Shown here: one piece after another, positions 3,430 through 60,805 of the stretch
How the letters are laid out: every line of letters begins with the position of its first letter
Numbering within the stretch: the first letter of the stretch is position 1
Assembly (NCBI GenBank): GCA_043228905.1
Contig: JBHGNT010000016.1
Coordinates: 10,912,001 to 10,976,000, forward strand
Source: Azolla caroliniana
Lineage: Eukaryota; Plantae; Polypodiophyta
DNA length: 64,000 nucleotides
Direction of reading: 5' to 3'
Program-made: the position numbers and the translations under genes
The notes under the pieces: model-generated
What the model was told of the DNA's origin: nothing
The model's database searches: none
What the model saw: the letters and a program-made list of their open reading frames with translations, nothing else

Positions 3430-3715
3430 ATCATATGTGGAATGAAAGACCATCATCACTAAAGGTTTGAGATGAGTTCATGGGTTCAAGTCCACCTAAG
3501 TTGTGACATTTTGTATAACATGACATCATCCCCCTCCAACAACAAGTTTTTACAATTCGAAATTCGCAGGCTCGGATTTGGCTTATTAGGATATCCATGA
3601 AGAAATTATGTTATGTGAGTTAAGATGTTTGCAAGATTGTAAGTGGGTTCCCAACTCCAATCAGTAGTCATGCAATCTGACTAATCCACAAGGTAGTATA
3701 ACTTTTTATGCATGG
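3430..3715 (-). mobile_element. Remnant 3' end of chromoviral Ty3/gypsy (chromodomain tail, PPT, start of LTR at 3525)
   Basis: Minus strand reads YYLVD*..WSWEP..NL (chromodomain), then PPT GGAGGGGGATGA and TGTCATG LTR start; parallels 4140-4300. Confidence 0.7.
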
Positions 3716-6525
3716 ATATTGTCAGGGTCGTAGCCAAAGACAAGTTTAAAATGAAGAAAAGAATGAGAAGTAGAAAATAAGAAAGGAATGAGAGATAAAT
3801 AAGATGTTGAAAATGTATTAGCAATGAGAACAAGGGTTACAAGAGTATGCCGAAGATTGGCGTTGAACCGGAATGGTTCATCAATACTTCGATATAGCAT
3901 GCTTTGGATACATCCATGCGCGCCACCTCATAGGCATGCATGATCACCATTTGGCATTCATGCAAGCATGACACTTGGTAATAATGTGTTAGCCTATGCA
4001 ATGACGACATTTCATAATATTATATATGTTTCTTCATGATCTAATATAAGAATTTATAACTTTACATGTGTAATGTGATGTATTTTGGTGGTTAAAGCTA
4101 CACATTATCTTTGAGGAGGTCATGGGTTCAAATCTCCATTATGAGTTGTGGTATATGTTCATGACATTATCCCCTTCCTTTAACGACGAGTTCCACGTGT
4201 CGCAATGCACGAACTAGGAGTTGGCTTATTCGGATATCATTGATGAAATTCAGCTACAAGTTCTTTGGTATTATTGAGATTTTCAACTGGCTCTCACGTT
4301 TGATCTGTAGCTGTATAATCCAACCAAATCAACGAAATGATACAATTTGTTCTTCACAACTTTGGAGTCCAAATTCATATTCCACGCCTTCATCAAGCTC
4401 AATAAGAGGTGGAGGGGGAACAACACGATCTGGAATAGAGTTTGAAGCATAAGGTTCCAAGAGTGAGACATGAAACATTGGATGAAGATGCATATGAGGA
4501 GGGAGATCGAGATGAAAAGCAACTTCATTGATCTGTTTAGTGATTAAATATGGACCAAGATGGTGATAATCCAACTTGTTACAAGGCCTAGTGGTCTTCA
4601 CATTACACTGTAAGAGCCATATATGATCTCCAACTTGAAATTTGAGTTTTTCCGATGATGAGTTGAGTCAGTGGCGATCTGCAAATTTCTTATGGGTGGC
4701 TTGAGCATGATGTAAATGATGAGAAATAGCAACATGAATTTCCTGGATATAACATAGGTGATCCTCCGCAACAGGGTTTTTCAATATTTTTGGGTGGTCA
4801 AGCATTGTCCAATGGGGATGAACACCCATGTTGGCAAAGAAGGGAGTAAGTTTGGTGGACGAATGAACTGAATTATTGTAAGAAAACTCCGCAAAAGGTA
4901 AATAATCTAACCAATCATCCTATTGATAATTGATGACGCAACGAAGGTATTGTTCCAAGGTTTGATTGGTACATTTGGTTTGACCATCAATCTTTGGATG
5001 ATAGCTTGAAGAGAGTTTACAATCAATTTGGAGGAGCCCAAACAAGTGTTTCCAAAATGTCACGATAAATTGTGGTCCTTGATCACAAATGATATCATCA
5101 GGAAGACCACGATACCGAAACACTTCACACATAACCAAATTTGTTGTCTCTTGACTATTAATAGTCTTTGTGCAGGGTAGAAAATGTGTCATCTTAGTGA
5201 ACCAATCTACAACAGTAAGGATGGAATTAAAACCTTTGGAAGACAGAAGATCAATAATGAAATCCATAGGTATAGACTTCCACGGACCATCAGGGACTTG
5301 TAAGGGTTGGAGTAAACCATACGGTCGATGTCGAGGACACTTGGACTAACAACATGCATCACAACTGCGAATGTAGTCCTCAACATAATTACGAAGATGC
5401 AACCACCAATAATTTCTAGAAACTAATTCCAAAGTTTTGTGAACTCCAAAATGTTTGGCCATTGGCATGTCATGGCAGTGTTGTAAAATAAGGAGTTGAG
5501 AACGACCATCAGGGACATAAAGTAAATTATTTCGAAAAAGTAAATTATCATGTCAACTGAACTTATTATAAACTTTGTACAAGAATGCACGGACCTTGAA
5601 CAAGCAGCACGATCTGGAATGATATGATTCAAGACATCTTGTGCAAATTCGTTTGCTTCAAGTTTAGTACGAATCGTACTAATAAATATCCAGTTTGTGG
5701 GTGTCTTAAAAGCGTTAGCGACCATCACTTGTAAACGATCAGAACCAAGGAGGATCTGCTTTTGATGATCAAAAGCAGGTTCCCCTAAACAGGGTGCCAT
5801 GTAGGAACGCCGAGATAGCGCATTTACCTTTCCATGGTGTATTGCGGGGCGATACACCATCAAGAAATCAAAGCGTGTACGAAATTGTGCCCAACGAGCC
5901 TGTCGACGATTTAAGACTCGAGCATTTTGGAAATACGTTAGGTTCTTGTGATCATTATAGAAAATGATTTGATGGGGAGAACCTTCCAAGAAGTAGAGCC
6001 AATGCTCAAAAGATTCTACAATAGCCAAAAGCTCCTTGTTGTGAATCTCATAATTAATTTCCGCAGCTTCAAATTTCCGCGAATGAAAAGCAACTAGATA
6101 TAATAGCCCGTTTTCTTTGGGTTGTGAGAGCACACTCCCGAGTGCAAAATTTGATGCATAACTTTCCAAAATAAAAGGCTTTTCTTGGTTAGCATGGATC
6201 AAAATAGGAGTTGATGTGAACGCACATTTTAAACTTTCAAATGCCTCAACCGCACTAGGATTCCATATGAATGGTTGGTTTTTATGTGTTAATTGTGTAA
6301 GAGGAAAAACCTTATTTGAGTAGTTCCTAATGAATTTGCAGTAAGAATTCGCAAATCCCACGAAACACTGGACATCACACATAGATTGTAGTGTTTCCCA
6401 CTCTAGAATTGTTTACACCTTTGTTGGATCCATAAATATTCCTTCTGGTGATATTATGTACCCCAAGAATTCCACTTAGTTGAGATCAAAACTACATTTC
6501 TTGAGTTTAGAATAGAGACCATATT

Positions 6526-6937
6526 TGTCATAAACATATGCCACACCAAGATGGAAGGTAAGGGATCGAACCTAAGACCTCATGGTCTCCATTGGGCAAC
6601 CCTACCAACTAAGCTACATTCATCTATGCATTCTTGTATTACGAAAATCCAACTTCATGTATGGTAGATTGAACATTGGATGTTCCTAGCTTGCATGCAT
6701 TCTCATGCATTCTATATTCCTAGTTTGCTTACATGCATTCTCTTTTCCTAGCTTACATACATGCATTCTCTATTCCTAGCTATCATACATACCCCTACCT
6801 TCTTATATAAATACTCAGGTGCACCTTGATTCTAATCAAGGTGAACAACACCAGTTACGGAATCATAAGTCAAGTTCTTGTTCTTTTTCTCTCTCTTAGT
6901 TCTTAGTCTCGTCTTAGTTTTTTTTTTTTCCATAACA
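6526..6937 (+). mobile_element. Solo LTR of a Tcn1-like family with 5-bp TSD ATATT
   Basis: TGTCATA...ATAACA flanked by ATATT at 6521-6525 and 6938-6942; the host RT frame (EEYGLYSKLKKC) rejoins across it; TATA region and downstream sequence homologous to LTR 17019-17436. Confidence 0.9.
6550..6623 (-). promoter_or_regulatory. tRNA-like Pol III-type module (A box + B box) inside LTR
   Basis: Minus strand: TAGCTTAGTTGGTAG ... GGTTCGATCCC with tRNA-like spacing; anticodon arm decayed, so not a functional tRNA gene. Confidence 0.7.
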
Positions 6938-7155
6938 ATATTCTTCATTAGTATAAATTCTACATACATGAGAAAATGATTAGTCTGACAACATCATAAA
7001 AGCTATGGCCATGATAGGCCAATAAAAAACTCAAAGACTCAGAGTAGAAGACTACAAAGAGCGGTGGACACACATACATGACTCTTTTTCCCATCTCATG
7101 TGATCATTGGCTAAGACCCAATGTTCATCCATCTTCTTCCATTCTCGCATGTTGA

Positions 7156-7585
<430 letters not shown>

Positions 7586-7599: not shown

Positions 7600-8200
7600 C
7601 TATTAAAATCCACTCTCCTCAGACCCTCACTAAAATTTGCTTCTGCCTCCGCCACCATCTTCGCTCATCGTTGTATAAACTAAAAACAAAAAATGTGCTT
7701 CAAATATTTCCACATCAGCCATCTCTCCATTTTCCTTGAAATTCTTGCATAGACAACCAAGAAAAAATTAGTTGTCCTCATCCACTCATGACCTTTTGCT
7801 TCAGCCCTCGACAACATCCTCGCTCATCCTTTAAAAAATAAACAACTTCCTTTTCCACAACATCCATCTTGCCAGTCACTGCCCGAGTCGTGTTTCTCTC
7901 TATTTTCAACAACTTCTTGTACCTACACAAAACAGAATTAATCCACTCTCCTCACCCTCATAAAACCTTGCTTCTACCTTTGCCACCATCTTCACTCATC
8001 ATTCTGAAAACTAAAAATGACTAAAAATGCTTCGAAAACATCCACATCAACTCTCTCTTCATTTTGCATCAAAATCCTCTTGCCATTCATCACCCGAGTC
8101 CTGTACCTACAAAAAAACTAGAATGAATCCACTCTCCTCAAACCCTCATGAAATCTTGCTTCTACCTCCACCACCATCTTCACTCATCCTTCCAAAATTA
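7600..8200 (-). repeat. Degenerate tandem repeat (3-4 units), homologous to the array at 59040-60420
   Basis: ATCCACTCTCCTCA...CTTCT.CCT...CCACCATCTTC.CTCATC recurs near 7608, 7941 and 8127, with a partial copy near 7778. Confidence 0.7.
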
Positions 8201-8214
8201 AATTGCTTCCAGAA

Positions 8215-10715: not shown

Positions 10716-11182
10716 AGGGACCTATTTCCTAACAAACTCCCCCTTCACTCCGGCATGGGGTGTCTTACTAGTCCGACCCGCTTTCGACATGGATCCAACT
10801 TGTCAGGTGTCAGTATTTTGGTCATCATATCTGACCCATTCTCGGCCGTGTGGATCTTCGTCAGCGCAAACTCCTGGTCATCTACTCTTTCTCGGATCCA
10901 GTGATACCTACGCTGGATATGCTTCGTCCGGGAATGGTAGGCCGCATTCTTAGCAAGGTGGATGGCACTTTGACTGTCGCAATAGAGCCGATATTCATCT
11001 TGCCGGATACCGAGCTCTCCGATGAAGTCCTTTATCCATAATATTTCCTTGCCGGCTTCCACAACTCCGTGGTTGACAGCGCTGTCGTAGTGTATTTTGT
11101 ACACTACGTGAAAAACGTATATAGTATTAGATTCAATAAAAAATGAAGAAATAGAAGAAAATAGCAAAATAAATGGAACATG

Positions 11183-11252
11183 CATAGGGCAAGATTCAAA
11201 CCTTGCACCTCCATGTTAATAATGTAATGTCTTACCATTACACTAGCATTTC
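11183..11252 (-). promoter_or_regulatory. tRNA-like module inside LTR (identical copy 13971-14040)
   Basis: Minus strand: TAGTGTAATGGTAAG ... GCAAGGTTTGAATCTTGC followed by T-runs. Confidence 0.6.
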
Positions 11253-11847
11253 ATTAGTGTTAAAGTATAGATGTCCCACATAGAAAGGTAAATTCACGCT
11301 AGGATAAACATTAGAAAAACGCATAACAAAAGAAAAAGCTACACATATACATCTAGCGTGCATGATAAAAAACGCACAAGTTAGAAAAAGCATGATCACT
11401 TTAGATAAAGCATATAGTCTATCTATAGGAAAAGCATGGGGTCTATAGTTAGAGAAAAAGCATGGATTACTAAGACTTCCTCATCACTACATAAGGATGG
11501 GGAGCACAATGTAATTGTGTGTGAAAAATATTTGGAAACTAGATATGTTTCTAAAAAACACCAATTAATAAACTATACTCGTGGGATTCACGAGAATTCT
11601 ATATCATTCTCTTTCAACCGAAGTTTATATTCTTATATTCATATTGATTAATCTAATACAATACACTCGTGGGATTCACGAGTTTGCTATAACTCTTTCT
11701 TATAACATATTTATATTCTTATTAGCCTTAAAACTCTCCTCTTCCTAGTCCAAAACCCCAGCGGTTCCCACCCGACTCACGCAACGATCTGGCGCCGAAA
11801 GGCACGACACAGTTGGTGAACCCGACGTGAAGACGGGTGGCAAGGAG

Positions 11848-13869
11848 ATGGAGAATCAACAAGAGGCGATGAACATGATGATGATAATGTTTGAGCGGAT
11901 GCAACAAGAACAACGTGCGATGTCGGAGATGAAGGCGGCAGTAGAGCGGCTTCTGCGACGAAACGGGGAATTCAACGGTAAGGGTGTGTCACGCTACCTA
12001 CGTGAATATAAGGCAGAGATGATGCAATATCGGATACCGAAAGGATTGCAAGTGATATCCTTTAGTCGGGTGGCCTCAGACGAACTACAAGAGAGAATCC
12101 ACAAGATACAACAACAAAACTCGACATGGGAGTCCTTTGAAGAAGCTTTACGGGAGGCATATGACTATGAGAGATGGACGGGACGAGATCGACGAGAATT
12201 CGACGAATGGGTGGCGTCGGAGAAGACTCACCGAAGTGCAACGCAAGCGTTCCTAGAGTTCGAGCATCGTTTTGCTCGACTCTCGGAGCGGGAACGAAGA
12301 TTGGTGGGAGAAGATAAAGTCCTAATGTTCGTAAAATCGATCGATCGAAAAGAAAGGATGGACATCGGGATCGAACTCGAAGACGATGAAGGTACGAATG
12401 GTCTTACCGAGGATTGGGCCAAAGTCGAAAGGGTATGCCGAAGACATGATGAAAGGAAGCTGAGAATCTCGTCAACAACGACATGGCCCATGAAGGATGG
12501 TCGATTGAGGAAAAACGATGAAGCCAATATGAAGGCCGAAATACAACATGATGGTACTACGGGAGAAAGAGTGGAACAAGACACCCACTCGTCTTGTGAA
12601 AGAACGATGGCGAAGGATAAGGCCGATAATTCAAGTGTAGAAGGAAATTTCGGGATACAAGTGCCCGAGACATCGGGTCAAAAAGGGGTAAGCATAATAG
12701 ATGTTTGCATAATTGATGCAGATAAAGAGTGTGAAGCGGATGTGATTAAGGAGGTAGCCACAAAAGACGAAATCGAATCGGAGGTGGCTATGGACGAATC
12801 AATGGCGGATTGCCATATCGAGACTTCCCCACCACTGATTCCAGAGACTCCGGCGGTTGCGATCGAAAGGCAACGTGAGACCGAAGAGACGGAAGGTGGC
12901 GGAGAGAAAACGAATGTCGAAGCCGACGAATACGATGAAGAGATAGCCGAGAAGAATGCTAAGGGTGAAACTACGAAAGAAGGTAATACCGAGGATTCAT
13001 GCCAACAATATCTAGAGACTTCGGCGGTTGTGTCCGAGAACCAACGTGAGACCGGAGAGACGAGAGATGGCGGCGAGGAAGGTAAAGTCGGAAGTCGGTT
13101 CGGATGGAAAATGATCCATCCGAAATTCCAATCTAAAAGAAAGTGCGACAATGCGGAGGTCGGGTCTACGACGGGAGAAGCGCGTAATACAGAGCACGCT
13201 CTACGGCGAATAAAGAAACGCGTGTTATGGCGAATAAAGAAGCACGCGCTACGGCGAGAAAAGAAGCATGCATTACAACCACACGAGGACCGAACAACGA
13301 GCACATATCGGAGGACCTACGTGGCGAACAACGGAAAGAAGTGCCGAAAGTCGAACCGGACAAGGCAGGTGAAAACGAAGAAAAGAAAGCAAATCTGGAC
13401 GAAAAGAAAAGAAAAGAAACCGACCCGAAAGAGCACTGAATCGGTAAAAACCGATCAACCGAGTCCAGATCGACCGAATACAAATAAAAAAGGAAGCCGA
13501 ACTAAACGAAAGACGATCCGACGAGACCGAATCGGAAGTAAGCTAATCCGACTAAACCGAAAATCCGAAAAGAAGTCGAGATTAATGAAGAAAAGAAAGA
13601 GGGCAAGAAAAGATACTACCACGGATGACAAGGACCAAGCGGGCCATGCAAAAAGCGAACGAAGACTATGGTGGATCGGATGTCGACAATGGTTCGGGTG
13701 GAAAGAATGGATGTGCTCCAAATGGAGAGACAAAGTCAACATAACAAGAGAAGTCGAGGGTACTACGAGCCGGCAACGAAACCAATCGGGTAGAGACCGG
13801 ACGGAGGAGACTAACAAACACCAACAACTTCGGCACATACCGGAGGATGTGCGGGTTTGGAGGGGGTGA
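11848..13869 (+). CDS. Intact ~673-aa Gag-derived protein with acidic, basic and Trp-rich C-terminal extension
   Basis: N-terminal ~210 aa align by eye with gag of the Trp-primed gypsy in this window (FNGKGVSRYLREYKAEM vs FSGKDATSYLEAYKSEM; FEHRFARLS vs FESRFARLS; GLTEDW vs GLTTDW). Open from first ATG to the PPT. Confidence 0.75.
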   Translation: MENQQEAMNMMMIMFERMQQEQRAMSEMKAAVERLLRRNGEFNGKGVSRYLREYKAEMMQYRIPKGLQVISFSRVASDELQERIHKIQQQNSTWESFEEALREAYDYERWTGRDRREFDEWVASEKTHRSATQAFLEFEHRFARLSERERRLVGEDKVLMFVKSIDRKERMDIGIELEDDEGTNGLTEDWAKVERVCRRHDERKLRISSTTTWPMKDGRLRKNDEANMKAEIQHDGTTGERVEQDTHSSCERTMAKDKADNSSVEGNFGIQVPETSGQKGVSIIDVCIIDADKECEADVIKEVATKDEIESEVAMDESMADCHIETSPPLIPETPAVAIERQRETEETEGGGEKTNVEADEYDEEIAEKNAKGETTKEGNTEDSCQQYLETSAVVSENQRETGETRDGGEEGKVGSRFGWKMIHPKFQSKRKCDNAEVGSTTGEARNTEHALRRIKKRVLWRIKKHALRREKKHALQPHEDRTTSTYRRTYVANNGKKCRKSNRTRQVKTKKRKQIWTKRKEKKPTRKSTESVKTDQPSPDRPNTNKKGSRTKRKTIRRDRIGSKLIRLNRKSEKKSRLMKKRKRARKDTTTDDKDQAGHAKSERRLWWIGCRQWFGWKEWMCSKWRDKVNITREVEGTTSRQRNQSGRDRTEETNKHQQLRHIPEDVRVWRG

Positions 13870-15999
13870 GTGTCGTAGTGTATTTTGTACACTACGTGAA
13901 AAACGTATATAGTATTAGATTCAATAAAAAATGAAGAAATAGAAGAAAATAGCAAAATAAATGGAACATGCATAGGGCAAGATTCAAACCTTGCACCTCC
14001 ATGTTAATAATGTAATGTCTTACCATTACACTAGCATTTCATTAGTGTTAAAGCATAGATGTCCCACATAGAAAGGTAAATTCACGCTAGGATAAACATT
14101 AGAAAAACGCATAACAAAAGAAAAAGCTACACATATACATCTAGCGTGCATGATAAAAAACGCACAAGTTAGAAAAAGCATGATCACTTTAGATAAAGCA
14201 TATAGTCTATCTATAGGAAAAGCATGGGGTCTATAGTTAGAGAAAAAGCATGGATTACTAAGACTTCCTCATCACTACATAAGGATGGGGAGCACAATGT
14301 AATTGTGTGTGAAAAATATTTGGAAACTAGATATGTTTCTAAAAAACACCAATTAATAAACTATACTCGTGGGATTCACGAGAATTCTACATCATTCTCT
14401 TTCAACCGAAGTTTATATTCTTATATTCATATTGATTAATCTAATACAATACACTCGTGGGATTCACGAGTTTGCTATAACTCTTTCTTATAACATATTT
14501 ATATTCTTATTAGCCTTAAAACTCTCCTCTTCCTAGTCCAAAACCCCAGCGGTTCCCACCCGACTCACGCAACGATCTGGCGCCGAAAGGCACGACAGCG
14601 CAACCGTCTTCTGCAGCCTCGACTGCCACGAAACAACTCCCCCTACATATGTCATTACATACCCGGATGTAGACCGGCTGGTATCCACATCAGCCGACAT
14701 GTCTGAATCTACTTCGGAGTCGGAGCTCGTATCCTTATCTTTCTGACGCGCCTCCTCATCTAGCAAGCTCGACTTCGCTCTTGCTAGGGATAACCGTTTC
14801 CCTTCCGGCCCGGCGTTGCCCAAAGTGACAACCAACGTCTCCTAGCTATCCGGGAGGGAACCGAGCAGGAGTAACGCTAGTACCTCATCGGCGAGAGGTT
14901 TTCCAATGATGTTGCCTGGTGTATCAGCCCCTAGAAGGCATTCATGTGCTCCGCCATGCTGGAGCCATCTTGGTACCAGAGTCTTACTAGCTTCCGGAAT
15001 ACCGAAACCTGATTAACAACATTTTTGTTTTGAAACATAATGCTGATCTTCTCCCAGAGCTCATGAGCCTTGCTCTCTTCATTGAAGTTGTTGTATAGGT
15101 TCATGTCGATGAAGCACCGTATGTACGCCGTTGTCTTCATGTGCATCACCTCCCATATCGTGGCGTCGATTTTGTCCGGTCTCTTGTCCCCGAACTGAAC
15201 CGGCAACCAAAGATCTTTAACTACGAGCATGTCCCTCATCTTCGACTTCCACACCGAATAGTTGGAGCCGGTGAGCTTGAACATGCCTCCCAACGAATCA
15301 TCCATTTTTTTGTGTTGCCTCGCTCTGATACCACTTTGACATGAACTACACGCTCTCGATGAACAACGCCCGGCCACAACCGAGCCTAGAATAAAACACA
15401 GAAAACAGGGAATGAAAGGTCAACACGATAGAGAGAAGTGTACAAGATGTTTACGTGGAAAACCCAAACACGAGAAAAACCACGACAGTCCACTGACTGC
15501 TACTTATCACTATATCACAATGATTACAATAGTGAGTTCACGGAGGCAACAACCTCGTGCTCACGATCTTCACCACAGGCGGCGGTTACAATAGAGGCAA
15601 CGACCTCTTCCTCTCTCTCTCTCTCTCTCTATACACTGTTACGCGCTCTCTAGTCTTTTGCACCAACAAGAATGACATCAACAATCTATATTCTCTGTTT
15701 GCCCTAAGTCATATTTATACTAATATGACTTTTTCGGCTATTTACAAATATAGCCCCGATGGACTCTCAGAAACATATTTACAAATATGTCCCTTCATCC
15801 GGCGAACAGTTCTCACCGGGCCTGCATCATTCGGCGCTTGCCGGGTACTCCTCATTCGGTTCACACCGGGTCTTCCTGGGTCGGGTACTCCTCATCCGGT
15901 TCTCACCGGGTCTTCATCATCCGGTTCTCACCGGGTCATCCGTAGCCGGGTACTCCTCATCCGGTTTTCACCCGAGTCTTCATCATCCGGTTCTCAGTC

Positions 16000-17018: not shown

Positions 17019-20000
17019 TGTCATGGAAATGACAACAATCATGTCATGATTCAAACTCTTGACCTATTGTATTTAATCGATATGTTTTAACCAATACATC
17101 CAATACATAATCATGTTACTTTACTAGATTATTGTACATTATCTATTCTACATGTAGGATTTTAGAAGCTTCCAGAAAGCTCCAGAAGCTAGAACATTCT
17201 AGAAGCTTGTGCATGAAAATGAGTCTTTGCATGAGGCTACATTTAGAGCCCATAAACATCTATAAATACAAGGGTTCACCTTGGCCTTAGTCAAGGTGAA
17301 CAACGCCAATTATGGAATCATAATTCAGTTCTTGTTCTCTTGACTGCTTTCTCTCTCTCTCTCTCTTTCTTATTATCTTGTCTATGATCTCTCTCTCACT
17401 CTCTTAGTATTGAGCCTCGTCTACTTGTCCGTGACAGTTTGTTCACATTCCATCTCTAAAGCCTCATCATGTCAGGTTCTACCGAGAACATAAATCAACT
17501 ATTGGCAGCCATGCATCAACTTCAATTTGAAAGTTAGAATCTTCGGGAATCTCTCCAGAAACTCCAAGCTAGGACTCCAATGGAATTGGAGAATGAAGAA
17601 CCCAAGTGCCCTCCTACATCAAGGAATCTCCAATCTGTAGAGCTTGGCCCCTCGTCAATCCTCGCTCCAATTCCTCTTCACCCCACTTCAACTATAGAAC
17701 CCAATGTTAGTTTACCCGACAAGTTCGATGGCACAAGGGCGCGATTCCGGGGGTTCATAAATCAGATCAAGCTTATTATCTGGCTACAACCCCAAAGATA
17801 TGCGAATGATTTTTGCCGAGTTGGCCTCATTGGGACTCTCCTCTCAAGAGCTGCACAACGCTGGTTCGCACCTTTGGTCGAAACATCATCGCCACTTCTC
17901 GACAATTTTCCTGCTTTCCTAGAAGAGTTCGAGGCGACATTTGGGGATACGGATCGGCGTCGAACAAGCCTTGCCAAAATCTATTCATTACATCAAGGTA
18001 AGCGTCCAGTGTCTGTTTATGCATCTGAATTTAGACAATTGGCATGTGATGTTCAATGGGACGACCAAGCCCTTTGCGCCATTTTCATCGGGGCCTTGAA
18101 AGTGATGTTAAGAATCTACTACTAAACTTCTTGGAGCCGACTTCATTATCGCAAGCCATCAAGCAAGCAGTCAATTGTGACAACCGCCTTTTTGAACTTC
18201 GACAAGAGGAACGGGCGACTTCCAAGTTGTCGCCCTTTCTCCACGTTAGACCTATGGTACAACCCCAAGTGACTGCGAGATATTCTCCAACGACATCGTT
18301 CAATGATCCTATGGTGATGGAAATTGATTGAGCTCAAGCCCCACTCACCACAACCGAATGACACCATCGACGAACCAATGGGCTATGTCTATACTGTGGT
18401 GCCTCTACCCATCTAATTCATATTTGCCCACTCAAAAGTAATCTGCGACAAGTCTATCGGGACAATCCAATTAGTGGATCCTAGCATTCGGAAAATGATG
18501 ATGTCCAACTACAGTAGGAGCCATGCGGTTGGACAACAGACGTACATGTTGCTCCCAAAGTTCTACTAACGACTTTTCCTTCGAGGTAACTCTCTGTTTC
18601 CAATCTATTTCAATTCAGTCCTTAGTGCTACTCGATTCCGGGGCCACGACGTGTTTTATGGACGAAACGTTCGTTCGTAAACACAACTTTCCTGTTGTGT
18701 GATTGTCCAAGCCTATCCCAATCGAAGCTATCGATGGGCGAATGCTCTCCTCTAGCGCAGTCACCAAAGCCACGGTCCCCCTCATTTTGCAGCTCGGGAC
18801 CCATCAGGAAGCCTTATCATTTTACCTCATCACTTCACTGCGGCATCCAATCATACTTGGGTTGTCTTGGTTGAAAGTGAATGACCTTGTTATAGATTGA
18901 CACAACCACTCACTTACTTGTCAACCGCAAACACACATGGAGGTTGGAGCGGTTTCCAATGTCGTTGTGTCAAAATGGCCCAAATCGTTTTTTGTCGAGC
19001 ACTCCGCCATTCAACTCGGACCAATGCCCTCAGATGCTCATGCCCCAATCACAATGCACTCCATCTCAATGGGCAATAACGCAGAGTTGAGTACCCCAGC
19101 TTTGGTTCCTATGAAAGCCAATCTGGACTCGCTTCCATCCAAATATGGTGACTTTGCTTATGTGTTCGAGAAGAAGAATGCAGATCACTTACTGGAGCAT
19201 CAACCATAATGATTGTCTGATCGATCTACAGGAGGGCACATCTCCACCCTTTGGGCCCATCTATGGTCTTTCTAAACCAGAACTAGAGGCTCTTCGCACA
19301 TATCTCGATGAAAATTTGGAGAAGGGCTTCATCTAATCGTCTAAGTCACCAGTTGGGGCCCCCATCTTGTTTGTGAAGAAAAAGGATGGATCGTTGCGTC
19401 TATGTGTGGATTACCGTAGCCTCAATAAAATCACGGTACATAATCGATACCCTTTACCTCTCATCCTAGAGCTCCTCGATCTCCTTCGTTGTGCACAGGT
19501 CTTCTCCAAGATTGACTTGCGGGGGGAGCATACAACTTGGTATGGATTAAACTTGGTGATGAATGGAAGACTGCATTTCGTACGCGATACAGACACTTCA
19601 AGTACAGGGTAATGCCTTTTGGACTCACCAATGCTCCAACTTTTTTCAACATATGATGAACGACATATTTCGAGAATATCTCGATCACTTTGTCGTTATC
19701 TACCTTGATGACATTCTTGTCTTCTCGTCGAGCATTGAAGAGCATACTCACTACGTTCGATTGATTCTCTCAAACATCAGGGAGCATGGCCTCTATGCCA
19801 AGAGAGAAAAATGTGAGTTTGATTGCAATTCCATAGGATTTATTGGTTATGTTATCTCACCCCAGGGCATCACCATGGATCCAAGGAAAATCAAGACAAT
19901 TCAAGAATGGGCCACTCCAAAACGAGTAAAGGATGTCTAGTCGTTCCTTGGTTTCGCAAATTTCTATCGGCGATTTATCAAGGGGTTCTCTGTCACAGTC

Positions 20001-20222
20001 CAACCCTTGATTGAACTTACTCGTAAAGGGATGTCGTTTCAATGGACTCCGTCTACTCAACACGCCTTTGACCTACTCAAAGAAGTTTTTACCCGGGTTG
20101 TAGTCCTCCTTCACGTCGACCCTACTAAGTCTTTTCAAGTTGAAATAGATGCCTCTGACTTTGCCATTGGTGCCATCTTATCCCAACCCAATGATGATGG
20201 CATCCTACATCCGGTGGCGTAC

Positions 20223-20813
20223 TGTTGGGAATATGTCCCTCTAGTGGGAGGAAGAACCGACTGATCGGAAAGTCGACAATTGATGACAGGGAAGATCCGA
20301 TTGTTCGGAAAGCCGACAATCGAAGAGTCGAAAACAATGAGTCGACTGTTTGAAGATTTGACTATTATTATTATTACTATAATAATAATGATGATGTTAG
20401 GAAACAGGTCTCTCCGGATGGGGAGAGAGAGGAGCCGAGTTGATGAGGGACTCGACCGAGGCCGTTAGGCCGAGGCCGAAACCAGAAACGTGTAAATAGC
20501 CAACTCGGGAGACTATATTTGTAAATAGTCTAAGTGTGTGCCCCATGAGGGCTACGTATGTGAATGACCAAAAAGTTGCGTAAGTATATATGCAACTAGG
20601 GAAAACATGTTGTGTGTGGGGGGTGGAACAAAGAGTAAGAACAGAAATTGTAGTGTGCAGGAGAGAGAGAGTGTGTGTGTGTGAGCCGTGCCATAACTGT
20701 GTGAGTAACAACAGACGCGAAGAGCCCTGTGTGGCTGATACACTCGACAGAGTGTTGTATTCCTCTCGGTGTTGTATATCCACTTTGTATAGTGAAGAAA
20801 TTTGTTAACCCGT
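20223..20813 (+). mobile_element. Truncated Ty1/copia-family LTR
   Basis: Starts TGTTGGGAATATGTCCCTCTAGTGGGAGG; reverse-complement homolog of the copia LTR at 51973-52597 and related to 41556-42177. Confidence 0.85.
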
Positions 20814-27745: not shown

Positions 27746-30700
27746 CAGGGGGGGGCACAAAACATGAAGGTTGATGATCTTTCACGATGGTCGGATTTTG
27801 AGTTGAGCCCCAGGGATGATGCCTATGCTCAACAATCTCAATGTTTGCTTAAACCAGATCAATTCCAGCTCTTCGCCACATGCATGTTGCATGATGACTC
27901 TTTGCTTGAGGAGATAACCAAAGCACTTCCCACCGACAAATTCTCCAATGCAATTCAGGAAGTTCTTATTGATCCGTCTAAATCCAAGACCAAGGAAGAC
28001 CTTGACCCTTCAGATTCGAGGGGGGATTGCTTTACTAAGACCAAATCTTATATGTTCCGGAGGGCCGATGTCGAACTCAAGTTCTCCAAAAGTGTCATGA
28101 TGACCCCTTGGCTGGTCATTTTGGAGTTAAAAAGACACTCGAATTAATCTCACGAGGATATTGATGGCCTCAACCATGGAAGTTCGTCAAGGAATTCATC
28201 AAGACATGTGATACTTGTGCTAGATCCAAAGTCGTCCACCATAGGCCATATGGGTTGCTCCAATCACTTCCCATTCCCAACCGGCCTTGGGCATCAAATT
28301 CCATGGATTTCATCACTGACTTGGCCCTTGTCCACGGATATGACACAATGCTCGTCATGGTAGATCAGTTTACAAAGATGGCTCATTTTGCCCCTTGTGC
28401 AAAGACTATTTAAGCAGAAACAACAACCGATCTATTTTTAAAGAATGTGGTGCGGCTTCATGGGGTCCCGGATGATGTCACCTCAGATCGTGGACCCCAA
28501 TTTGTCTCTCGTTTTTTGCGGTGAGTCCTTGAAACATTTGGCACAACAGTAAATTTGTCTTCGTCCTATCATCCTCAAACCAATGGCCAAACGGAGCGGG
28601 TGAACCAAATTCTTGAGCAATACCTTCGATGCTCGCTTAGCTACCAGCAAGATGATTGGGTTGACCTCCTACCCTTGGCAAATTTCACATATAATAATAC
28701 GCTACATGGTTCAACTGGGGTCACCCCATTTTTCGCCAACTATGGTTTCCATCCTCGTTTCAGTACTTCCATCCCTGGCAACTCTATCAACCCGTCAGCG
28801 GAAGGATGTGCTCGTATTTTAGCTGACATTCATCAAGACCTCTCCCTCGAACTCATCCTTGCAAGGGACCGGTATAAAGCGCAAGCTGATCGGCATCGTT
28901 CCGCTATACCCGCCTTTGTAGTTGGTGATCAAGTTTGGCTCTTACATCGCCATGTCGATACTACTTGACATTGCGGAAAGTTGGATTACAAAAAGCTGGG
29001 GCCTTTCTGCATCATTGAGTGTGTCAATCCCGTCACTTTCCAGCTAGAACTTCCTCCAGATTTCCGGATTCATAATGTCTTCCATGCCTCTCTTCTCGAA
29101 CGTTATCATCCATCCACTATTCCTGGAAGACACTCTCCACCTCCACCTCCACCTCCAATTGAGCTTTCCACAAGTGAGGAGTATGTGGACAAGATTCTGG
29201 ACTCTCGTTGGCATTGAAGACAACTTCAATACTTAGTCCTATGGAAAGGGTATCCCATTTCAAAGGCAACTTGGGAACCAACCCAACACTTGGAGAATGC
29301 ATTGGATGTTGTTCATGCATTTCATCACCAATATCCACAAAAACTGGGGACGCATCTTCGAACGCGGCCTTAGTAGGGGGTTAATGTTATGGATAGTCAT
29401 GTCATGATTCGAACTCTTGACCTATTGTATTTAATTGATATGTTTTAACCAATACATCCAATACGGCCTTAGTAGGGAGATAATGTCATGGATAGTCATG
29501 TCATGATTCGAACTCTTAATTGATATTGATATGTTTTAACCAATACATCCGATACATAATCATGTAACCTTCTAGATTATTGTATATTATCTATTCTATA
29601 TGTATGATTTTAGAAGCTTCCAGAAAGCTCCAGAAGCTAGAAAGGGTTTTATTGAACCCTCAAAATCACCAACAGGAGTTCCTATTTTGTTCGTGAAAAA
29701 GAAAGATGGCTCCTTACGCCTCTACGTTGATTATCAAGGTCTAAACAATATTACTGTTCGCAACCGATACCCACTACCTCTCATCCCAAGCTATTGGATC
29801 GACTCCGAATTGGGAGGATCTTCTCTAAGATTGACCTACGGTGTCGAGGAAATCCTCGCGGATGTGCAGAAGTTGGGCAAGACCACGGGGGTCTTGAACC
29901 AAGGAATCGAAAAGTGAGGAGGAAGAGTTTGTGGTTTACGAGAGCCCTGAGACCGTGGTTTAAACAGAAAAAAGATTAGCGAAACGAGAGAGATAGTGTA
30001 GGAGGATCGTGCGTAGACACAAGCGCAGACAAATATGCTAAGAACAACTTGCGTTAGGTGGATAAGCTTCTATTAATCAATATAGGTGTGTGGCACTGTG
30101 GGTGATTACAACCGGATCAGTGCCGGTGTTCGAGCGTAGGCTCTACAGTAGTCAGATATGGAGATGAGTGGGCACACAGAAGGTCGATCCCCTGGTCGGG
30201 AGCACTCGGGCGTCTGATGTGAGCAAGGGAAGCGCCTTCTGCTCGCATGTCGTAAGACTCCTCGTCTTCTTTTGTCTTGTCTCCTTTCTCCTCTCTCCCT
30301 CTTTTCTCCTCTCTTTCAACGACCTTTCTCTAAAAAACAGGACATCCCCAAAACAGTTGAGGGTCGCCCCTTTTATAGCACGAGGAGTGACCGTTACAGA
30401 GCATTCATAGCCTTGTCGCTTTAACTTCCTAAATTCTCCCCCCCCCTGATTCGCTCTCCTTGTAACTCTCCCTACTTACGCGATGTCTAAATCGCTATTA
30501 GAGCTTTAACTACCTAGTACACCTCCCTTTCCCTATGCCTAGGACTTACACTATCTAATTCACAAGGGGTGTGCACTCGTGCACACCAATGCTCCCACGC
30601 GTTTCACTTTGTTTCTACCGATGGCCCGGAATCTTCACGACATCCACCCCCACTAAACTGCACATACTCCGTTATGTGCCAGGCAATGATTTTAGTGAGG

Positions 30701-34005: not shown

Positions 34006-34646
34006 TGTCGTGAAAATCTGTCACTATATGCGGAACTGCCGAATCAGATGGATTCGAAGTTTGTACTAGTTTTAGCGAGAAAGTATTTAAGATAGATTGA
34101 TATGGACAGAGAGAGATTAAGCTCGAGATCGAACCCTTCACTTTAGATTTGTGAGACAAGATACATCACCAATTGGATAACGAATTTTCTCTTTATTAAT
34201 TTCTTGATTAGTACATAGTTTGCTTGATATCCTTTTCTTTTTCCTCCCCTCTTTTATAGATTCCCCCATGCATATGATGCGTGTGAGGGTACAAGACATG
34301 CATACAATGCATGTTTGCCATTCGGTGCTCATGCATTAGATGTGACGCATGATAACCATGTCACTCTTTCAAGCTCTCATGTATGAGAATTTACATATGA
34401 AGAATATAATGATGAAAATATAAGGGAATGGCTTGGCTTAATGGTAAGTTAATTGGCTCTTATCTACGAGGTGAAAGGCATATCAAGAATATAATGTTAT
34501 AAAAATATAAGGAAATGACTTGGCTTAATGGTAAGTTAATGGGTTCCTATCGAGGAGCTGCAAGGTTCAAATTCTTACTTGCACCCTTTCTTACACAATT
34601 ATTTTATTTTATTTTTATTTTACTAGGCTTTAGTCACGTCACGACT
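34006..34646 (-). mobile_element. Probable LTR (minus orientation) carrying duplicated tRNA-like modules
   Basis: TGTCGTGAAAATCTGTCACTATATGCGGA at 34006 is the near-exact reverse complement of the terminus at 50231-50259 (...GTGACAGATTTTCACGACA). The other end is uncertain (CACGACT at ~34646). Confidence 0.55.
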
Positions 34647-34799: not shown

Positions 34800-35443
34800 T
34801 AGCCAAAACCATTCCAAGCAATAAAGGGACGCGCAAGACCCATTGTGTTTTAGGGTTTAGTTGCAGGGACACAACACAATTGTTATTCCGCGGTTTATCG
34901 TGCTTTTGTTCCATGTGTTTAGATGAAGCTTGGGATGAATGCACCAATCTATCAATTGTGGAGCCATGGAAGCTACAGAAGCTTGAGATTGAACAATGTG
35001 TGGATATCCAGGAAGACGAACATGTAGAGAATATTGTATACTACAACCAATGTGAGGACTTGGCAGTATTATTCAAAGTTGGAGATCATTTTGCAGTGCT
35101 CAAATCTCCTCAAAATGAAGATTTTGAAGACTATTACATTGTGGTGTGCAAGCAAGGAAATACAATATTGGAAGAAGTCGTGAGGGATGGTTGGGACAAC
35201 GTGTTCAACGTTGGTGAGTGTGTTGTGTATGGAAACTACTATGCAAAGTTACCACAATGCAAGAACACGTATGCATTATTAAAAGATGCACCCACTGCAA
35301 TAATCTATGTTGACACTGTCATCGCAATCAAGTTCACTATGAGTCAAGCAAAGCACAAGGTTAAGGGATACAACATTGTCTACAAGGTCCCCAAAGAGGT
35401 TCACGAACACATATTGGGGGAGGTCTCCCTCTCTAATTCTTAG
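34800..35443 (+). pseudogene. C-terminal part of a probable DNA-transposon transposase (Sola2-like, tentative)
   Basis: KGTRKTHCV...R.LSCFCSMC...C motif followed by a beta-rich domain; resembles from memory the GTRxxH/SCFCxxC tail of Sola2-type transposases. The catalytic core is absent from the window. Confidence 0.45.
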
Positions 35444-54744: not shown

Positions 54745-57700
54745 AAGTCAGTTGAAGAAGTCGTCAGTTGAAGAAGTCTTTGGTAGGTAGGATTGATGTT
54801 CTTTTGATTTAGGAACATCATTTAAATGAACAACGGATTCGGAAATATGGAAATCTGTTGCCAGGTCAATGGAGGCAGCTTTGGGTGCCTGTAGTTGGTG
54901 ATAATAGGTTGAAAGCTGGACTCTGTATAACAATAAACGATACCTGTTTGTTATCTTTCTTACATTATGGAGTCTTGTCATGTAGTCGAGGTCAATATGC
55001 AATTTTTCCAATAGGTTTGAAGAAGTGGGGTTTATTGAATATTTATGCTGCGAATAATGCAAGAGATAGAACGATACTTTGGAAGAGCATAATTTCACAG
55101 TTACCCACTATGGATCATTGGGCGATTGCAGGTGATTTTAATATGTTAGAGGATGTGTGTGATAGGGTAGGAGGAAGGTCACATACAGTAGCTGGTTCAG
55201 AATTATATGAATGGGAACGACTGATTTTTTTTTTGGGATTAATGGATTTGTGGCATGTATCTTCCTTTGTATCCTTTGTAAGGCTACAGGATTCTTTAGC
55301 GTACTCTAGATCGGATAGAAGAGAGGTATATACTAATTTGTCTAGGCTAGATAGATTCTATGCCGATAACTTTATATGGGACAAAGGAGGCCCCATTGGA
55401 ATTTTACCTTCATTTTCCTTTTCTGATCATGCACCACTTTGTATAATTATAGTTTTACAGGAACACTATAAAACTTCTAGATTTCGAATTCCGAATCATG
55501 TGTTTCTTAGACAAGATTGTGTTCCTATTGTACATAATATTTGGAATAAGTATGTCTATTCTTATGATTATGCATTGTCTAGTGTTCAAAAGGCTATTAT
55601 GGAAATACAACAATTTTTTCACTATAAGGCCAAACAAGTAGTTCAATCGTCTTTCACAAAAATAGGAAGACTTTGTGGGGGATTGAGGTCCTTGCAACAT
55701 TTGCAAGAGAGAAGGCCATATTCGACTTATATAAGTTCTAGAGTGATACACGTAGGGAACCAGATATTAGAATTACAAAAGGTTTCTGCTGAATTTACTT
55801 ACCACAATATAACATCTGAATGGGCAAAGTCAGGAGATAAAGTAAATAAAATGTTTTTTAAAATGCATAATTACCATAAGTCGGTGGCTAGGATTTCCCA
55901 TTTAAAATGTCTGGATGGCTCTTATACCAATGATCCTAGTTAGATGCGGCAAATAGCCTCTGAATATTATGATAATTTGTTGAAGGCTCAATCCTTTTCT
56001 ACTGATGATTTATCTAAACGAGATATTATATGGTCGAGGATTCAACATAGAGTGTCTGTTCAACTTTCCGAACATCTTTTGCAGCCATTAAGTCCTTAAG
56101 AGGTTTTTAAAGTAGCAAAGGCCTTAACAAAGGATGTTTGTCCTGGATTGGATGGGTTGGGGGTCCAATGGTATTTACAATATTGGGAATTGATAGGTGA
56201 GGGACTAACTAAAGCTTATTAACAAGTTTTAGATTCTGGACATATGCCCCAAGAATGGAATGACGGTTTAATCTACATGATTCCCAAATCAAGTGGTCAG
56301 TTAGAGGAGCTTCAGCATTGGAGGCCAATTACTTTGTTGAATATTATTTATAAGATATTAGCCAAAACGTTAGCTAGACGTTTACAACCTTATCTTTCTG
56401 AACTGATTCATAATTCTCAGATAGGTTTTATACAAGAGCGAAGTATTTTTGATAATATTATTCTTTTTTGGGGAATGGTAGCTTTTGCTGAAGTGCAAAA
56501 TCAACAGTTGGCAGTGCTATTTCTGGATTTCGAAAAAGCTTATGACAGAGTGGATTGGAATTTCATGGAGGGTACTTTGCTTAAGATGGGTTTTCCAAAC
56601 AGATGGATACAGGGTGTTTCAGCATTATATCATAATGGACATAGTTCAATTTTATTTGCAGGGGATATTGGTAGGCGTTTCTCTATTTCAAGATCAGTAA
56701 GACAAGGATGTCCACTTGCTCCTTTTCGGTTTTTATTAGTATCTGAAGCGTTTTCTGTACACCCTCACAATTTAACTTGTTGCAGGTTCAAAAAGCTGTG
56801 GATGACTTCGCAAATGCATTGGGTGTGTTGATCAATTGGGATAAATCATCAGGTTTTTGGGTGGCTTTGGGAAATCCTCCATTTCATGTTCCTAGCGCAG
56901 GTTTCACGTGGATTCCTAAAGGGCAATCCATTAGGTATTTAGGATGTAGAGTAGGGTTAGGATTAAAGGTAGACGATATGATTGCGCCCTTATTGTTAAG
57001 ATTAAGGAATAAGCTAATATATTGGAATAAGGAAAAGTTATCGTTAGCAGGACGTGTAGTTGTTGCTAATTCCGTGCTTTTGTCCTCCATTTGGTATATA
57101 GCGTCTACATGGTTGTTTTCTAGATCAATAATGCTTAAAGGTCAACGCCTAGTGCGGAATTTTATTTGGGGAAATGATATGTTACACAATACTATAGCAA
57201 AGGTAGCTTGGTCGATTCTTATACAACCCAAACAAAAAGGAGGTTTAGGTTTGATTGATTCTTTTATGCAAAGTAAAGCATTACTTGTTAAACATGTTGT
57301 TAGGTGTTTATTGCGAGGACAGGAGTTATGGAAAAAGTTATGGATGTGTCATTTATATAAATTTAAACCATTGGTTGGTCGTCAATGGTGTGTTAGTCTT
57401 AGATGGTTCTTTAACTCATATTTTCCGTTGTCTAAATCGACAGTTGGGTCTTTACGTTTTCTTAATGGAAATCTAAGGGCATGGGAAAGTATTCATCGAG
57501 CACTTGTTTTCTTGCCACCAAAAACATATCATCAATTAATGTGTCAGCCGTTGTTATGGAATTCTTTGTTTACTGATGAAGTGGCATGTGTTTTGGGTTT
57601 GCGACCTTGGTTATCTTGGTCTGCAATGGATAATGGACCAACTCGTACGGTTGCGGATTGGGTAAATTTCCTACAGACTTCCCTGCAAGATCAAAAGACT

Positions 57701-59020: not shown

Positions 59021-59039
59021 GTAATCATGGAAGTAGTTC

Positions 59040-60420
59040 TAGTTGGTAAGGATGAATGATGGTGTTGGCGGGGGGTTGAAGCACATTTTTAGGAGGGGAT
59101 GCACACAATACATTTACTCTATTGTTGTTTGTACAGGTTTTAGGTGGTGAACGAACAGAGGGTTGATGTAGAAAATGAAGCAAATTGTTGATGTGGAAAA
59201 TGAAGCACATTCTAGTTTTGTAGAGGATGTTTCATGATGGTGTAGGGGGATGAAGCCAATTTCTTGAGGGGATTAGGAGAATAACTCATTCTGTTTTTGT
59301 TACAGGTTCGAAATGGTATAAATCGAGATGGGTGATGTGGTTATTGAAGCAAATTGTCTAGTTTTTAAGGATGAGAGAATCATGGTGGTGTTGCGGGTTG
59401 AAGCAAGGTTTGATGAGGGGGTAGGTTTTATTTTTATTATGATGATTGATGATGGCGGTGAGTGGTGAGAATTGAAGCATGTTTCCCATGAAGAGAGGAT
59501 AAGTGAAGATGGTGCGACGGCCGAAGTATATAATGAGGAGATGTGGAAATTGTTTACACCTAATTTGTTGTTGTTTATTACAGGCCCTTCATGGTAATCG
59601 GTGAAGTGTTGGATGGGACTGAATGAAGCAATTTTTTTTGTGATAAGGATGATGGTGGGGGGGTCGAAGCAGACTATCATGACTGGGTGAGGAAACTTTT
59701 AGAATAATTCTTGTTGTTAATACATGATTTTCGTGTACATTGGCAAGTTGCTTAGCGGTGAGATGGTTGATGTGGACTGAATGAAGAAATTTTTTGTGAT
59801 AAGGAGGAGTGAAGATGGTGGGGTGGTCGAAGCCGACTATGTTGAGTGGGTGAGGAAACTTTTAAGCTAATTTTGTGTTGTTAATACAGGATTTTCGTGG
59901 ACATTGTCAAGATGCTAATCGATGAGATGGCTGATGTGGATTGAATGAAGAATTTTTATGAGATAAGGATGAGTGAAGATGGTGGGGGGGTCGAAGCCGA
60001 CTATCATGAGTGAGTGAGGAAATTTTTACACTAACTTCTATTGATTATGCAGGATTTTTAGTGGACATTGGCAAGATGTTAATAGCATCGCCAAGATGGC
60101 TGATGTGGACTGAATGAAGAATTTTTATGAGATAAGGATGAGTGAAGATGGTGGGGGGGTCGAAGCCGACTATCATGAGTGAGTGAGGAAATTTTTACAC
60201 TAACTTCTATTGATTATGCAGGATTTTTAGTGGACATTGGCAAGATGTTAATAGCATCGCCGAGATGGCTGATGTGGACTGAATGAAGATTTTTTTCTGT
60301 GATAAGGATGAGTGAAGATGGTGGGGGGGTCGAAGCCGACTATCATGAGTGGGTGAGGAAATCTTTAGAATAATTTCTTGTTGTTAATATAGGTTTTTTG
60401 TGAACATTGGCAACATGCCA
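59040..60420 (+). repeat. ~155-170 bp minisatellite array, about 9 units, increasingly homogeneous toward the right
   Basis: GATAAGGATGAGTGAAGATGGTGGGGGGGTCGAAGCCGACTATCATGAGT at 59962, 60131 and 60301; diverged copies near 59798, 59642, 59495, 59368, 59224 and 59048. Confidence 0.9.
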
Positions 60421-60654
60421 AGATGGTATACAAAGAGTCTGACAAATCATCCCTACATGAACTCACCAAAGAAAATTGAAGAAATGTGTATATTGGGAGA
60501 GTAAGCTGATCAAGACGGTCATATTGGTCTATGGGGCTGTTTACCTCTATTTTCTCGTGCTGATGAACAGTATATAGGACTACCGTGGAGGAGATGTATA
60601 TATGTGGAGGAGATGTATATTCTCAATGGTCGTGGAGATGAAGGAGATGGTAGC

Positions 60655-60805
60655 TGTTGACATGGGTCCAAGGTGACCCACCACATTTTGGTCTTATTGG
60701 GTTGAACCCATGACCTTTTGGTCTTATTGGGCAACCTTACCAATTGAGCTACATCTATCTATGCATTATTGTATTGTATAAGATTCAACTTATTACATTG
60801 TAGAT
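60655..60805 (+). mobile_element. Fragment of a Tcn1-family LTR related to 6526-6937
   Basis: ATTGGGCAACCTTACCAATTGAGCTACATC..TATGCATTATTGTATT..GTAGATTGA closely parallels 6590-6672. Confidence 0.7.

What the first reader, a model, noticed from the sequence alone, without database searches (positions are those of the whole stretch)
3432..60757. Antisense tRNA-like (A-box/B-box) modules built into the U3 end of LTRs from several gypsy families
Seen: a ~70-bp tRNA-shaped unit lies near the LTR 5' end, always opposite to element orientation, at 3432-3496(+), 4078-4140(+), 6550-6623(-), 11183-11252 and 13971-14040(-), 17040-17101(-), 29400-29460 and 29499-29550(-), 34430-34585(+) and 60695-60757(-). 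The A-box-like (TAGCTCAATTGGTA, TAGTGTAATGGTA) and B-box-like (GGTTCGATCC, GGTTCAAATC) parts are recognisable while the anticodon arm is scrambled. The module is in both LTRs of single elements, so it replicates as part of the LTR, and it occurs in both Tcn1-like chromoviruses and a Trp-primed non-chromovirus derivative. Known analogy: Cassandra TRIMs carry 5S Pol III units in their LTRs, and tDNA/TFIIIC sites act as chromatin barriers in yeasts and animals. Inference: these elements may carry their own TFIIIC-bound insulator or an antisense Pol III small-RNA unit, possibly acquired more than once.
Basis: partly seen in the sequence, partly recalled or inferred. Interest (0 to 1): 0.85.

Follow-up and report, generated by a model that had tools for sequence, protein, structure and literature searches.

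The report
Backward tRNA promoters in fern retrotransposons
Several families of fern jumping genes carry a worn-down, back-to-front copy of a tRNA gene's internal promoter at the outer edge of their end-repeats, and the promoter boxes rather than the tRNA fold are what persists, so the unit likely binds the tRNA transcription machinery and may shield the element's own promoter from silencing, a role not tested here.

Summary
A box model built from phage tRNAs puts reader sites in the window's top 7 (7 hits at 12 bits or more, 1.1 expected). All 6 Tcn1-like and 3 Trp-type LTR starts carry an antisense unit (p 0.007 or less); 10 control LTR ends do not. The units are not tRNA genes, and their stems pair at chance level, so the boxes are what is kept. 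The host is likely a fern. The unit sits in both LTRs of two elements and beside long intact gag-pol frames in metagenome contigs.

About 70 of 93 outside matches to one unit are a free ~200-bp SINE-like element with two facing tRNA-like units, sitting in (GA)n tracts; which gave rise to which is unresolved. And tRNA boxes in LTRs are published (Helenus), but sense, near the 3' end, in tiny non-coding elements.

Best reading (0.4): an outward-facing TFIIIC/Pol III site protecting the LTR's Pol II promoter. No binding or expression data exist. This scan noted similar LTR-borne boxes in fungal genomes. New variant of a known kind.

The parts
3435..3496 (+). Degenerate unit: good B box (3483-3492), A box lost; antisense in a minus-strand Tcn1-like 3' LTR that starts at 3525 after a PPT (3526-3543)
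   Evidence: p 0.007; A -6.5, B 18.8 bits; chromodomain remnant upstream
3721..4166 (-). Tcn1-like 3' LTR (TG...CA), PPT just upstream, after RNase H, integrase and chromodomain remnants at 4170-6526
4074..4145 (+). tRNA-like A/B unit, antisense, A box 86 bp from the LTR start
   Evidence: 17.1 bits; 10.9 bits; p 0.001
6527..6930 (+). Tcn1-like LTR without adjoining internal region (3' end approximate); TATA 6806-6813, R motif 6837-6849
6550..6623 (-). Best-preserved unit; exact tRNA spacing, anticodon stem unpaired; same head as the free SINE-like element
   Evidence: 24.7 bits; 25.3 bits, E 4e-5
11083..11809 (+). 5' LTR of a young gag-only element (TSD GCGC, tRNA-Trp-type PBS 11814-11831)
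11175..11252 (-). tRNA-like unit, antisense, A box 163 bp from the LTR start, T4 run 76 nt after the A-box start; 64-69% of laid depth carries the canonical B-box letter at 11198
11749..13869 (+). 705-aa gag-like frame, no Pfam hit; 36% identical over 142 aa to gag of the autonomous Trp-primed family, whose LTRs lack the unit
13871..14597 (+). 3' LTR of the same element (2 mismatches in 727 bp)
13963..14040 (-). Same unit in the 3' LTR
17019..17436 (+). 5' LTR of a nested Tcn1-like element; TATA 17261-17268, R 17292-17304, self-priming-type site 17437-17446 complementary to R, then gag
17044..17102 (-). Divergent, weak unit, antisense
   Evidence: 6.9 bits; p 0.005
29173..29384 (+). Chromodomain (broken) and PPT of the 17019 element
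29402..29460 (-). Unit in the 3' LTR (start 29385) of the 17019 element; canonical B-box core
   Evidence: 12.7 bits; p 0.002
29501..29550 (-). Tandem duplicate of PPT plus LTR start, with a spacer deletion
   Evidence: p 0.004
34006..34646 (-). Trp-type LTR without internal region; direction from the minus-strand TATA at about 34252-34258
   Evidence: (read by eye)
34514..34584 (+). Full unit, antisense, T-runs downstream; duplicate A-box half at 34434
   Evidence: 14.8 bits; p 0.001
60695..60811 (-). LTR fragment of the 6527 clan: unit with truncated T arm plus 60 bp of U3; LTR end lost; a copia LTR abuts at about 60811
   Evidence: (78% to 6568-6675)

Best explanation
The outer end of U3 in several fern gypsy LTR families holds a tRNA-derived A-box/B-box promoter pointing out of the element, which likely binds TFIIIC and the Pol III machinery and would keep the LTR's own Pol II promoter, 110-200 bp further in, open against silencing from the flank. 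Shown: position, antisense direction, tRNA-gene spacing of the boxes, copying into both LTRs, presence in coding-competent families, loss of the cloverleaf. Inferred: capture from or exchange with a SINE head, at least twice (Tcn1-like and Trp-primed lineages); selection on the boxes; protein binding; barrier function. The fixed antisense direction is inferred to be the one that does not send Pol III across the TATA box.
For: Boxes persist at tRNA spacing (B box 43-45 nt after the A-box start in 7 of the 9 window sites where located it) in LTR families whose units are only 41-57% alike and whose remaining U3 gives no BLAST alignment longer than 39 nt.

Between subfamilies of one clan the B box, which was not part of the search pattern, is 87-99% identical, like the TATA/R core (84-93%). 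It exceeds the rest of U3 (69-86%), the spacer (69-83%) and U5 (57-67%).

Stems outside the boxes pair at chance level in 14 of 17 units tested, which points to DNA-level recognition.

L270 has the unit between a 549-aa RNase H-integrase frame plus chromodomain and an 875-aa gag-PR-RT frame. The same head fronts a dispersed SINE-like element, which suggests a working Pol III promoter.

tDNA barriers need TFIIIC, Pol III and an intact A box in fission yeast (PMC2040200, passages). Tcn1 chromodomains keep the aromatic cage that binds H3K9me (PMC6317226, passages), so insertion into heterochromatin is plausible.
Against: No ChIP, methylation or RNA data. No animal- or yeast-type barrier element has been shown to work in plants (PMC9540200, passages). 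The yeast barrier is independent of orientation, so the strict antisense rule needs an extra assumption.

The B-box excess rests on 11 nt and three subfamilies and was not tested for significance. Several window copies have damaged boxes.

The window's autonomous Trp-primed family and copia LTRs do without the unit, and Selaginella SM-Tcn1 shows none by eye. One of the carriers is a non-chromovirus.
Confidence: 0.4

Rival explanations
1. The unit works through an antisense Pol III RNA. From the 3' LTR it would be complementary to the U3 end and PPT of the element RNA and could limit or steer replication, or seed small RNAs.
For: This explains the fixed direction directly. T4 runs lie 74-81 nt after the A-box start at 3435, 11245, 14033 and 34521. 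Subfamily b keeps a 7-of-7 acceptor stem (L296, 34.9 bits, p 0.0015). The 11173-11252 unit folds well (z -3.7).
Against: No shared fold: 7 of 8 window units have z above -1.8. In Tcn1-like LTRs at 4081, 6616 and 29460 the first T4 lies outside the LTR, so 5' LTR transcripts would end in random flank.
Confidence: 0.2
2. Passenger: SINE heads were captured into U3, copied along by reverse transcription and are decaying without function.
For: A free element shares the 6550-type head (75% mean identity). It also landed in the U5 (CT)n tract of an LTR in L288, so capture is easy. Many copies have damaged boxes; the B-box core was intact in 13 of 17 LTR-type and 36 of 57 free-type copies.
Against: Chance capture does not predict the same end and same direction in 9 of 9 LTR starts from at least five families, nor boxes surviving while the spacer and U3 turn over.
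Confidence: 0.17
3. RNA-level docking site: on the element RNA the unit reads as the complement of tRNA D and T arms and binds a host tRNA at U3, as the 3' part of the bipartite Ty3 primer site does.
For: In Ty3 the T-psi-C and D arms of the primer pair with U3 (PMC5371799, passages). This fits antisense direction, U3 location and box-only conservation.
Against: The Tcn1-like elements have a self-priming-type site complementary to R (PMC6317226). In the Trp element the unit's T-stem letters differ from those implied by its own PBS (read). No single tRNA isotype stands out among 539 phage tRNAs.
Confidence: 0.1
4. Landing pad: the unit makes each LTR a Pol III start site that attracts new insertions, as tRNA genes attract Ty3 or Ty1 (targeting recalled).
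For: One copia LTR abuts the 60695 fragment about 50 bp upstream of the predicted start. Unchecked notes e1-10420520 and e1-10420559 report such clustering in a fungus-like genome.
Against: Junctions upstream of the units do not cluster in the 20 aligned LTR sequences (by eye).
Confidence: 0.1
5. Helenus-type use: Pol III from the unit makes the element's genomic RNA.
For: Same kind of boxes in LTRs (PMC10886601).
Against: Wrong strand. The elements are kilobases long and keep a TATA box and R region.
Confidence: 0.02

Closest known systems
Helenus TRIMs (TRIMp3; Kojima 2024, PMC10886601; parts 1-4 of 6 of the text, searched passages, part 4 of 11 and passages of the supplement read)
   Same: tRNA-derived sequence in both LTRs; A and B boxes kept, tRNA function lost; proposed origin from a SINE in an LTR; several origins; one plant case (Selaginella).
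   Different: Helenus are 311-1263 bp non-coding elements. In the supplement sequences I read by eye the unit is sense and near the LTR 3' end. Here it is antisense, at the 5' end of U3, in elements with gag or gag-pol and a Pol II TATA box. The paper expects autonomous elements to use Pol II promoters and followed up only TRIMs under 1000 bp, though it says 'not a few LTRs' in Repbase resemble tRNA parts.
Cassandra and Ajax TRIMs (as described in PMC10886601)
   Same: Pol III promoter inside the LTR; Cassandra occurs in ferns and angiosperms.
   Different: 5S-type boxes; Cassandra transcription runs from the 5' LTR to the 3' LTR (sense); non-coding.
Tcn1 chromoviruses (PMC6317226 and PMC2864245, passages; SM-Tcn1 supplement read whole)
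   Same: gag-PR-RT-RH-INT-chromodomain, no tRNA PBS, self-priming-type site, PPT.
   Different: The passages read mention no tRNA-like LTR unit, and the SM-Tcn1 LTR shows none by eye.
tDNA/TFIIIC chromatin barriers (S. pombe cen1 tDNA-Ala; PMC2040200, passages)
   Same: An A/B-box unit next to a Pol II promoter at a possible heterochromatin border.
   Different: Those are host tRNA genes, tested experimentally and independent of orientation; nothing equivalent is shown in plants (PMC9540200, passages).
Ty3 bipartite primer-binding site (PMC5371799, passages)
   Same: tRNA-complementary sequence in U3.
   Different: Short segments matched to the primer tRNA; here a gene-length unit, in elements that appear self-primed or use another tRNA.
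tRNA-headed SINEs (SINE2)
   Same: The 6550-type unit is the head of a dispersed ~200-bp element with an A-rich end.
   Different: That element carries a second tRNA-like unit on the opposite strand and sits in (GA)n tracts; no partner LINE or TSD was established.

Membership tests
Helenus / TRIMp3 | tRNA-derived A and B boxes in both LTRs | tested here: met
Helenus / TRIMp3 | Short non-coding element (about 300-1300 bp) | tested here: not met
   3.5-kb gag-only element and full gag-pol families
Helenus / TRIMp3 | Unit in sense direction near the LTR 3' end, able to drive element RNA | tested here: not met
   antisense, A box 76-163 bp from the 5' end; Helenus direction read by eye
Functional tRNA gene | Cloverleaf with paired acceptor, anticodon and T stems; detected by ARAGORN or Rfam | tested here: not met
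   (0 genes in 15 loci)
Tcn1 chromovirus (host elements) | Chromodomain after integrase | tested here: met
   PF00385 in L270; window copies 70-86% identical to it
Tcn1 chromovirus (host elements) | No tRNA PBS; site after the LTR complementary to the R region | tested here: met
Tcn1 chromovirus (host elements) | Placement in the Tcn1 clade of an RT tree | not tested
   no reference set aligned; the label rests on domain order, priming site and host group
Type 2 Pol III promoter | A and B boxes at tRNA spacing | tested here: met
   A box lost at 3435
Type 2 Pol III promoter | TFIIIC/Pol III binding and transcription | not testable with these tools
   only contigs, no raw stranded reads
tDNA barrier insulator | Blocks heterochromatin spread in an assay | not testable with these tools
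   needs a reporter or chromatin data
SINE (free element) | tRNA-like head, 100-700 bp, dispersed, simple-sequence tail | tested here: met
SINE (free element) | Target-site duplication and a 3' end shared with a LINE | tested here: inconclusive
   flanks are (GA)n tracts, which hide a TSD; no comparison with LINE ends was made

The most novel reading that the evidence does not exclude
Fern gypsy retrotransposons carry their own tDNA-type barrier: at least two unrelated lineages fixed an outward-facing Pol III unit at the LTR edge to stay active in heterochromatin, and trade this unit with a two-headed, microsatellite-targeting SINE. It would be the first tDNA-type insulator in a plant.
Probability: 0.3. 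Interest if true: 0.85.

Novelty: new variant of a known kind. Interest (0 to 1): 0.6.

Why it matters
Barrier insulators are essentially unidentified in plants (PMC9540200). A very abundant mobile A/B-box unit at a fixed LTR position gives a direct test of whether TFIIIC/Pol III sites do that job, and of how heterochromatin-seeking chromoviruses stay transcribed. It also extends Pol III boxes in LTRs from tiny parasites (Cassandra, Helenus) to coding elements, in the direction that cannot make element RNA, so a different function is needed. The shared head documents traffic between a SINE and LTRs. In practice these units can confuse tRNA and SINE annotation in fern genomes.

Tried and rejected
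No whole genome is held, so family-wide LTR alignment was not possible.

No RNA holder was listed. The one guessed-RNA run laid (X18) gave 2 contigs, which says nothing on expression.

The depth peak over the 6550 unit in 4 of 4 runs (282k in X1, against 5-50k in the rest of U3 and 171k at TATA/R) first looked like conservation in LTRs. I set it aside, because about 70 of 93 pattern matches are the free element. The peak at 11190-11215 may be inflated the same way.

A viral-contig search with an integrase piece found nothing. The first phage tRNA set was selected with the finding's own A box and was not used for the models.

Direction of exchange: the tree of 64 units (16 loci with truncated or rearranged B-box sides dropped, plus duplicates and contig-edge copies) groups the 16 LTR-clan units (92/91, not starred). 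It does not reject a clade of free copies (AU p 0.92), so the direction is undecided.

Nearest-isotype matching was uninformative. A chromodomain-anchored sample free of pattern bias was too small: in the window 2 of 3 chromodomain hits are followed by an LTR with the unit and the third has no LTR.

A sense-direction box-like match in U5 of the 34006-34646 LTR (34122-34180, 8.9 bits) is within noise.
Full report
Setting. The window is a nest of gypsy, copia and LINE pieces beside an isopropylmalate synthase gene. Among single-length homologues of its first exon, the best named hits are the ferns Ceratopteris (84%) and Adiantum, so the host is likely a fern.

The observation. All ten places exist. 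ARAGORN and Rfam report no tRNA, so I built independent models from tRNAs lying beside phage tRNA-Phe genes. The two-box model ranks seven reader sites first to seventh on both strands of 64 kb, with 7 hits at 12 bits or more against 1.1 expected. The covariance model's top four hits are reader sites, best 25.3 bits. A test anchored on LTR starts rather than on the boxes gave antisense p 0.001-0.007 for 6 of 6 Tcn1-like and 3 of 3 Trp-type starts, and p above 0.1 for 4 LTRs of the autonomous Trp-primed family and 6 copia ends. Weak sense signals also appeared: p 0.03 in the two 11083-family LTRs and 0.004 when the 34006 LTR is read from its other end.

Anatomy. In Tcn1-like LTRs the order is PPT, TG, about 20-35 bp, B box, A box, 110-200 bp of U3, TATA, R, U5, CA, then a site complementary to R. 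That last feature matches the self-priming predicted for Tcn1 (PMC6317226, passages), so the unit lies in U3 and points outward. The element 17019-29642 has it in both LTRs. The gag-only element 11083-14597 has it in both 727-bp LTRs, and its gag is 36% identical to that of the autonomous Trp-primed family that lacks it. Laid contigs from three organisms bridge the 11083 LTR terminus and the unit at about 83-88% identity, and 64-69% of depth carries the canonical B-box letter where the window copy is mutated.

Outside copies. A 26-nt pattern from the 6550 and 60695 units found 93 matches in 92 metagenome loci; some are the same place assembled twice. The script classed 22 as LTR, 61 as free, 6 as both and 4 as unknown. 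By eye the 6 'both' are free copies whose (CT)n flank matched U5, and one unknown is an LTR, giving 23 LTR-type and about 70 free or unclear. LTR-type copies fall into three subfamilies with the same layout. L270 places the unit between long open pol and gag-pol frames, though that contig may be an assembly collapse of many copies. Coding pieces of these loci are up to 92% identical to window elements. A further family's LTR with its own unit turned up in L288.

The free element. It is about 200 bp: the same head, a short body, a second tRNA-like unit on the opposite strand followed by its own T4, and an A-rich end. (GA)n tracts precede 51 of 66 copies and follow 16 of 27 copies whose far end was found. 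It is absent from the window. Its head is 75% identical to the LTR-clan units and 48% to those of other Tcn1-like families; a tree cannot say which gave rise to which. Because of it, the depth peak is not evidence of conservation in LTRs.

What is conserved. Between subfamilies the B box is 87-99% identical, TATA/R 84-93%, the rest of U3 69-86%, the spacer 69-83% (small numbers, not tested for significance; the A box was fixed by the pattern). Across families U3 does not align and units share 41-57%, yet box order, spacing, end and direction hold. Stems pair at chance level in 14 of 17 units; the exceptions are the acceptor stems of two subfamily-b copies and the T stem of the free element's second unit. 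This favours recognition of DNA boxes over an RNA fold.

Mechanism. I put 0.4 on an outward-facing TFIIIC/Pol III site that keeps the LTR promoter open, by analogy with the fission-yeast tDNA barrier (PMC2040200). Against it: no such barrier is known in plants (PMC9540200), and the yeast barrier ignores orientation. Rivals are an antisense RNA (0.2), a passenger (0.17), a Ty3-like tRNA docking site (0.1; PMC5371799) and a landing pad (0.1). None was tested by binding or expression.

Prior art. Helenus is the nearest case: tRNA boxes in LTRs of short non-coding elements, sense and near the 3' end in the sequences I read. PMC13570524 (passages) only cites it. SM-Tcn1 shows no unit by eye; five .doc supplements of that paper could not be read. 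Ten searches (listings only, apart from the seven papers cited) showed no description of antisense tRNA boxes in LTRs of coding elements or of the two-headed element. The library lacks most subscription papers, and Kojima notes further tRNA-like LTRs in Repbase that were not followed up. Unchecked notes of this scan describe LTR-borne Pol III boxes in fungal genomes; I found none on this feature in this genome.

Verdict. Real, lineage-specific and recurrent; a new variant of the Pol-III-box-in-LTR theme; function inferred. Interest 0.6.

Noticed in passing
L306:2988-3185 (also L309, L312, L314, L316, L300, L288): Free ~200-bp SINE-like element with two facing tRNA-like A/B units and an A-rich end, sitting mostly in (GA)n/(CT)n tracts; not found in my literature searches; absent from the window.
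   Followed up: partly
L288:1470-1665: A copy of the free element sits in the U5 (CT)n tract of a Tcn1-like LTR that has its own U3 unit, a snapshot of how SINE heads can enter LTRs.
   Followed up: partly
L296 versus L270: U3 about 86% alike between subfamilies a and b while chromodomain-coding tails are only 64-72% alike, which suggests LTR swapping between lineages.
   Followed up: partly
window 11743-11809 and 14531-14597: The LTR 3' end holds a second PBS-like motif (TGGCGCC...) just inside the terminus, and this end has by far the highest laid depth.
   Followed up: no
window 34122-34180 (-): Weak sense-direction A/B-like match in U5 of the Trp-type LTR (8.9 bits, within noise).
   Followed up: partly
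window 60811: A copia LTR abuts the Tcn1-like LTR fragment about 50 bp upstream of the predicted Pol III start; a single case.
   Followed up: no
window 2108-3525: Tcn1-like LTR remnants lie within about 800 bp upstream of the isopropylmalate synthase start, with the 3435 unit pointing away from the gene.
   Followed up: no
window 7607-8202 and 59496-60421: Related ~165-bp tandem repeats on opposite strands (71-81% alike); the second array follows a LINE frame.
   Followed up: no
window 31565-33633 and 54838-56953: Two 96% identical copies of a LINE segment (endonuclease- and RT-like frames).
   Followed up: no
window 34649-35443 and 38879-39649: Two long open frames with no confident Pfam family, near ~200-bp repeats at 37710-38500; possibly a DNA transposon.
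   Followed up: no
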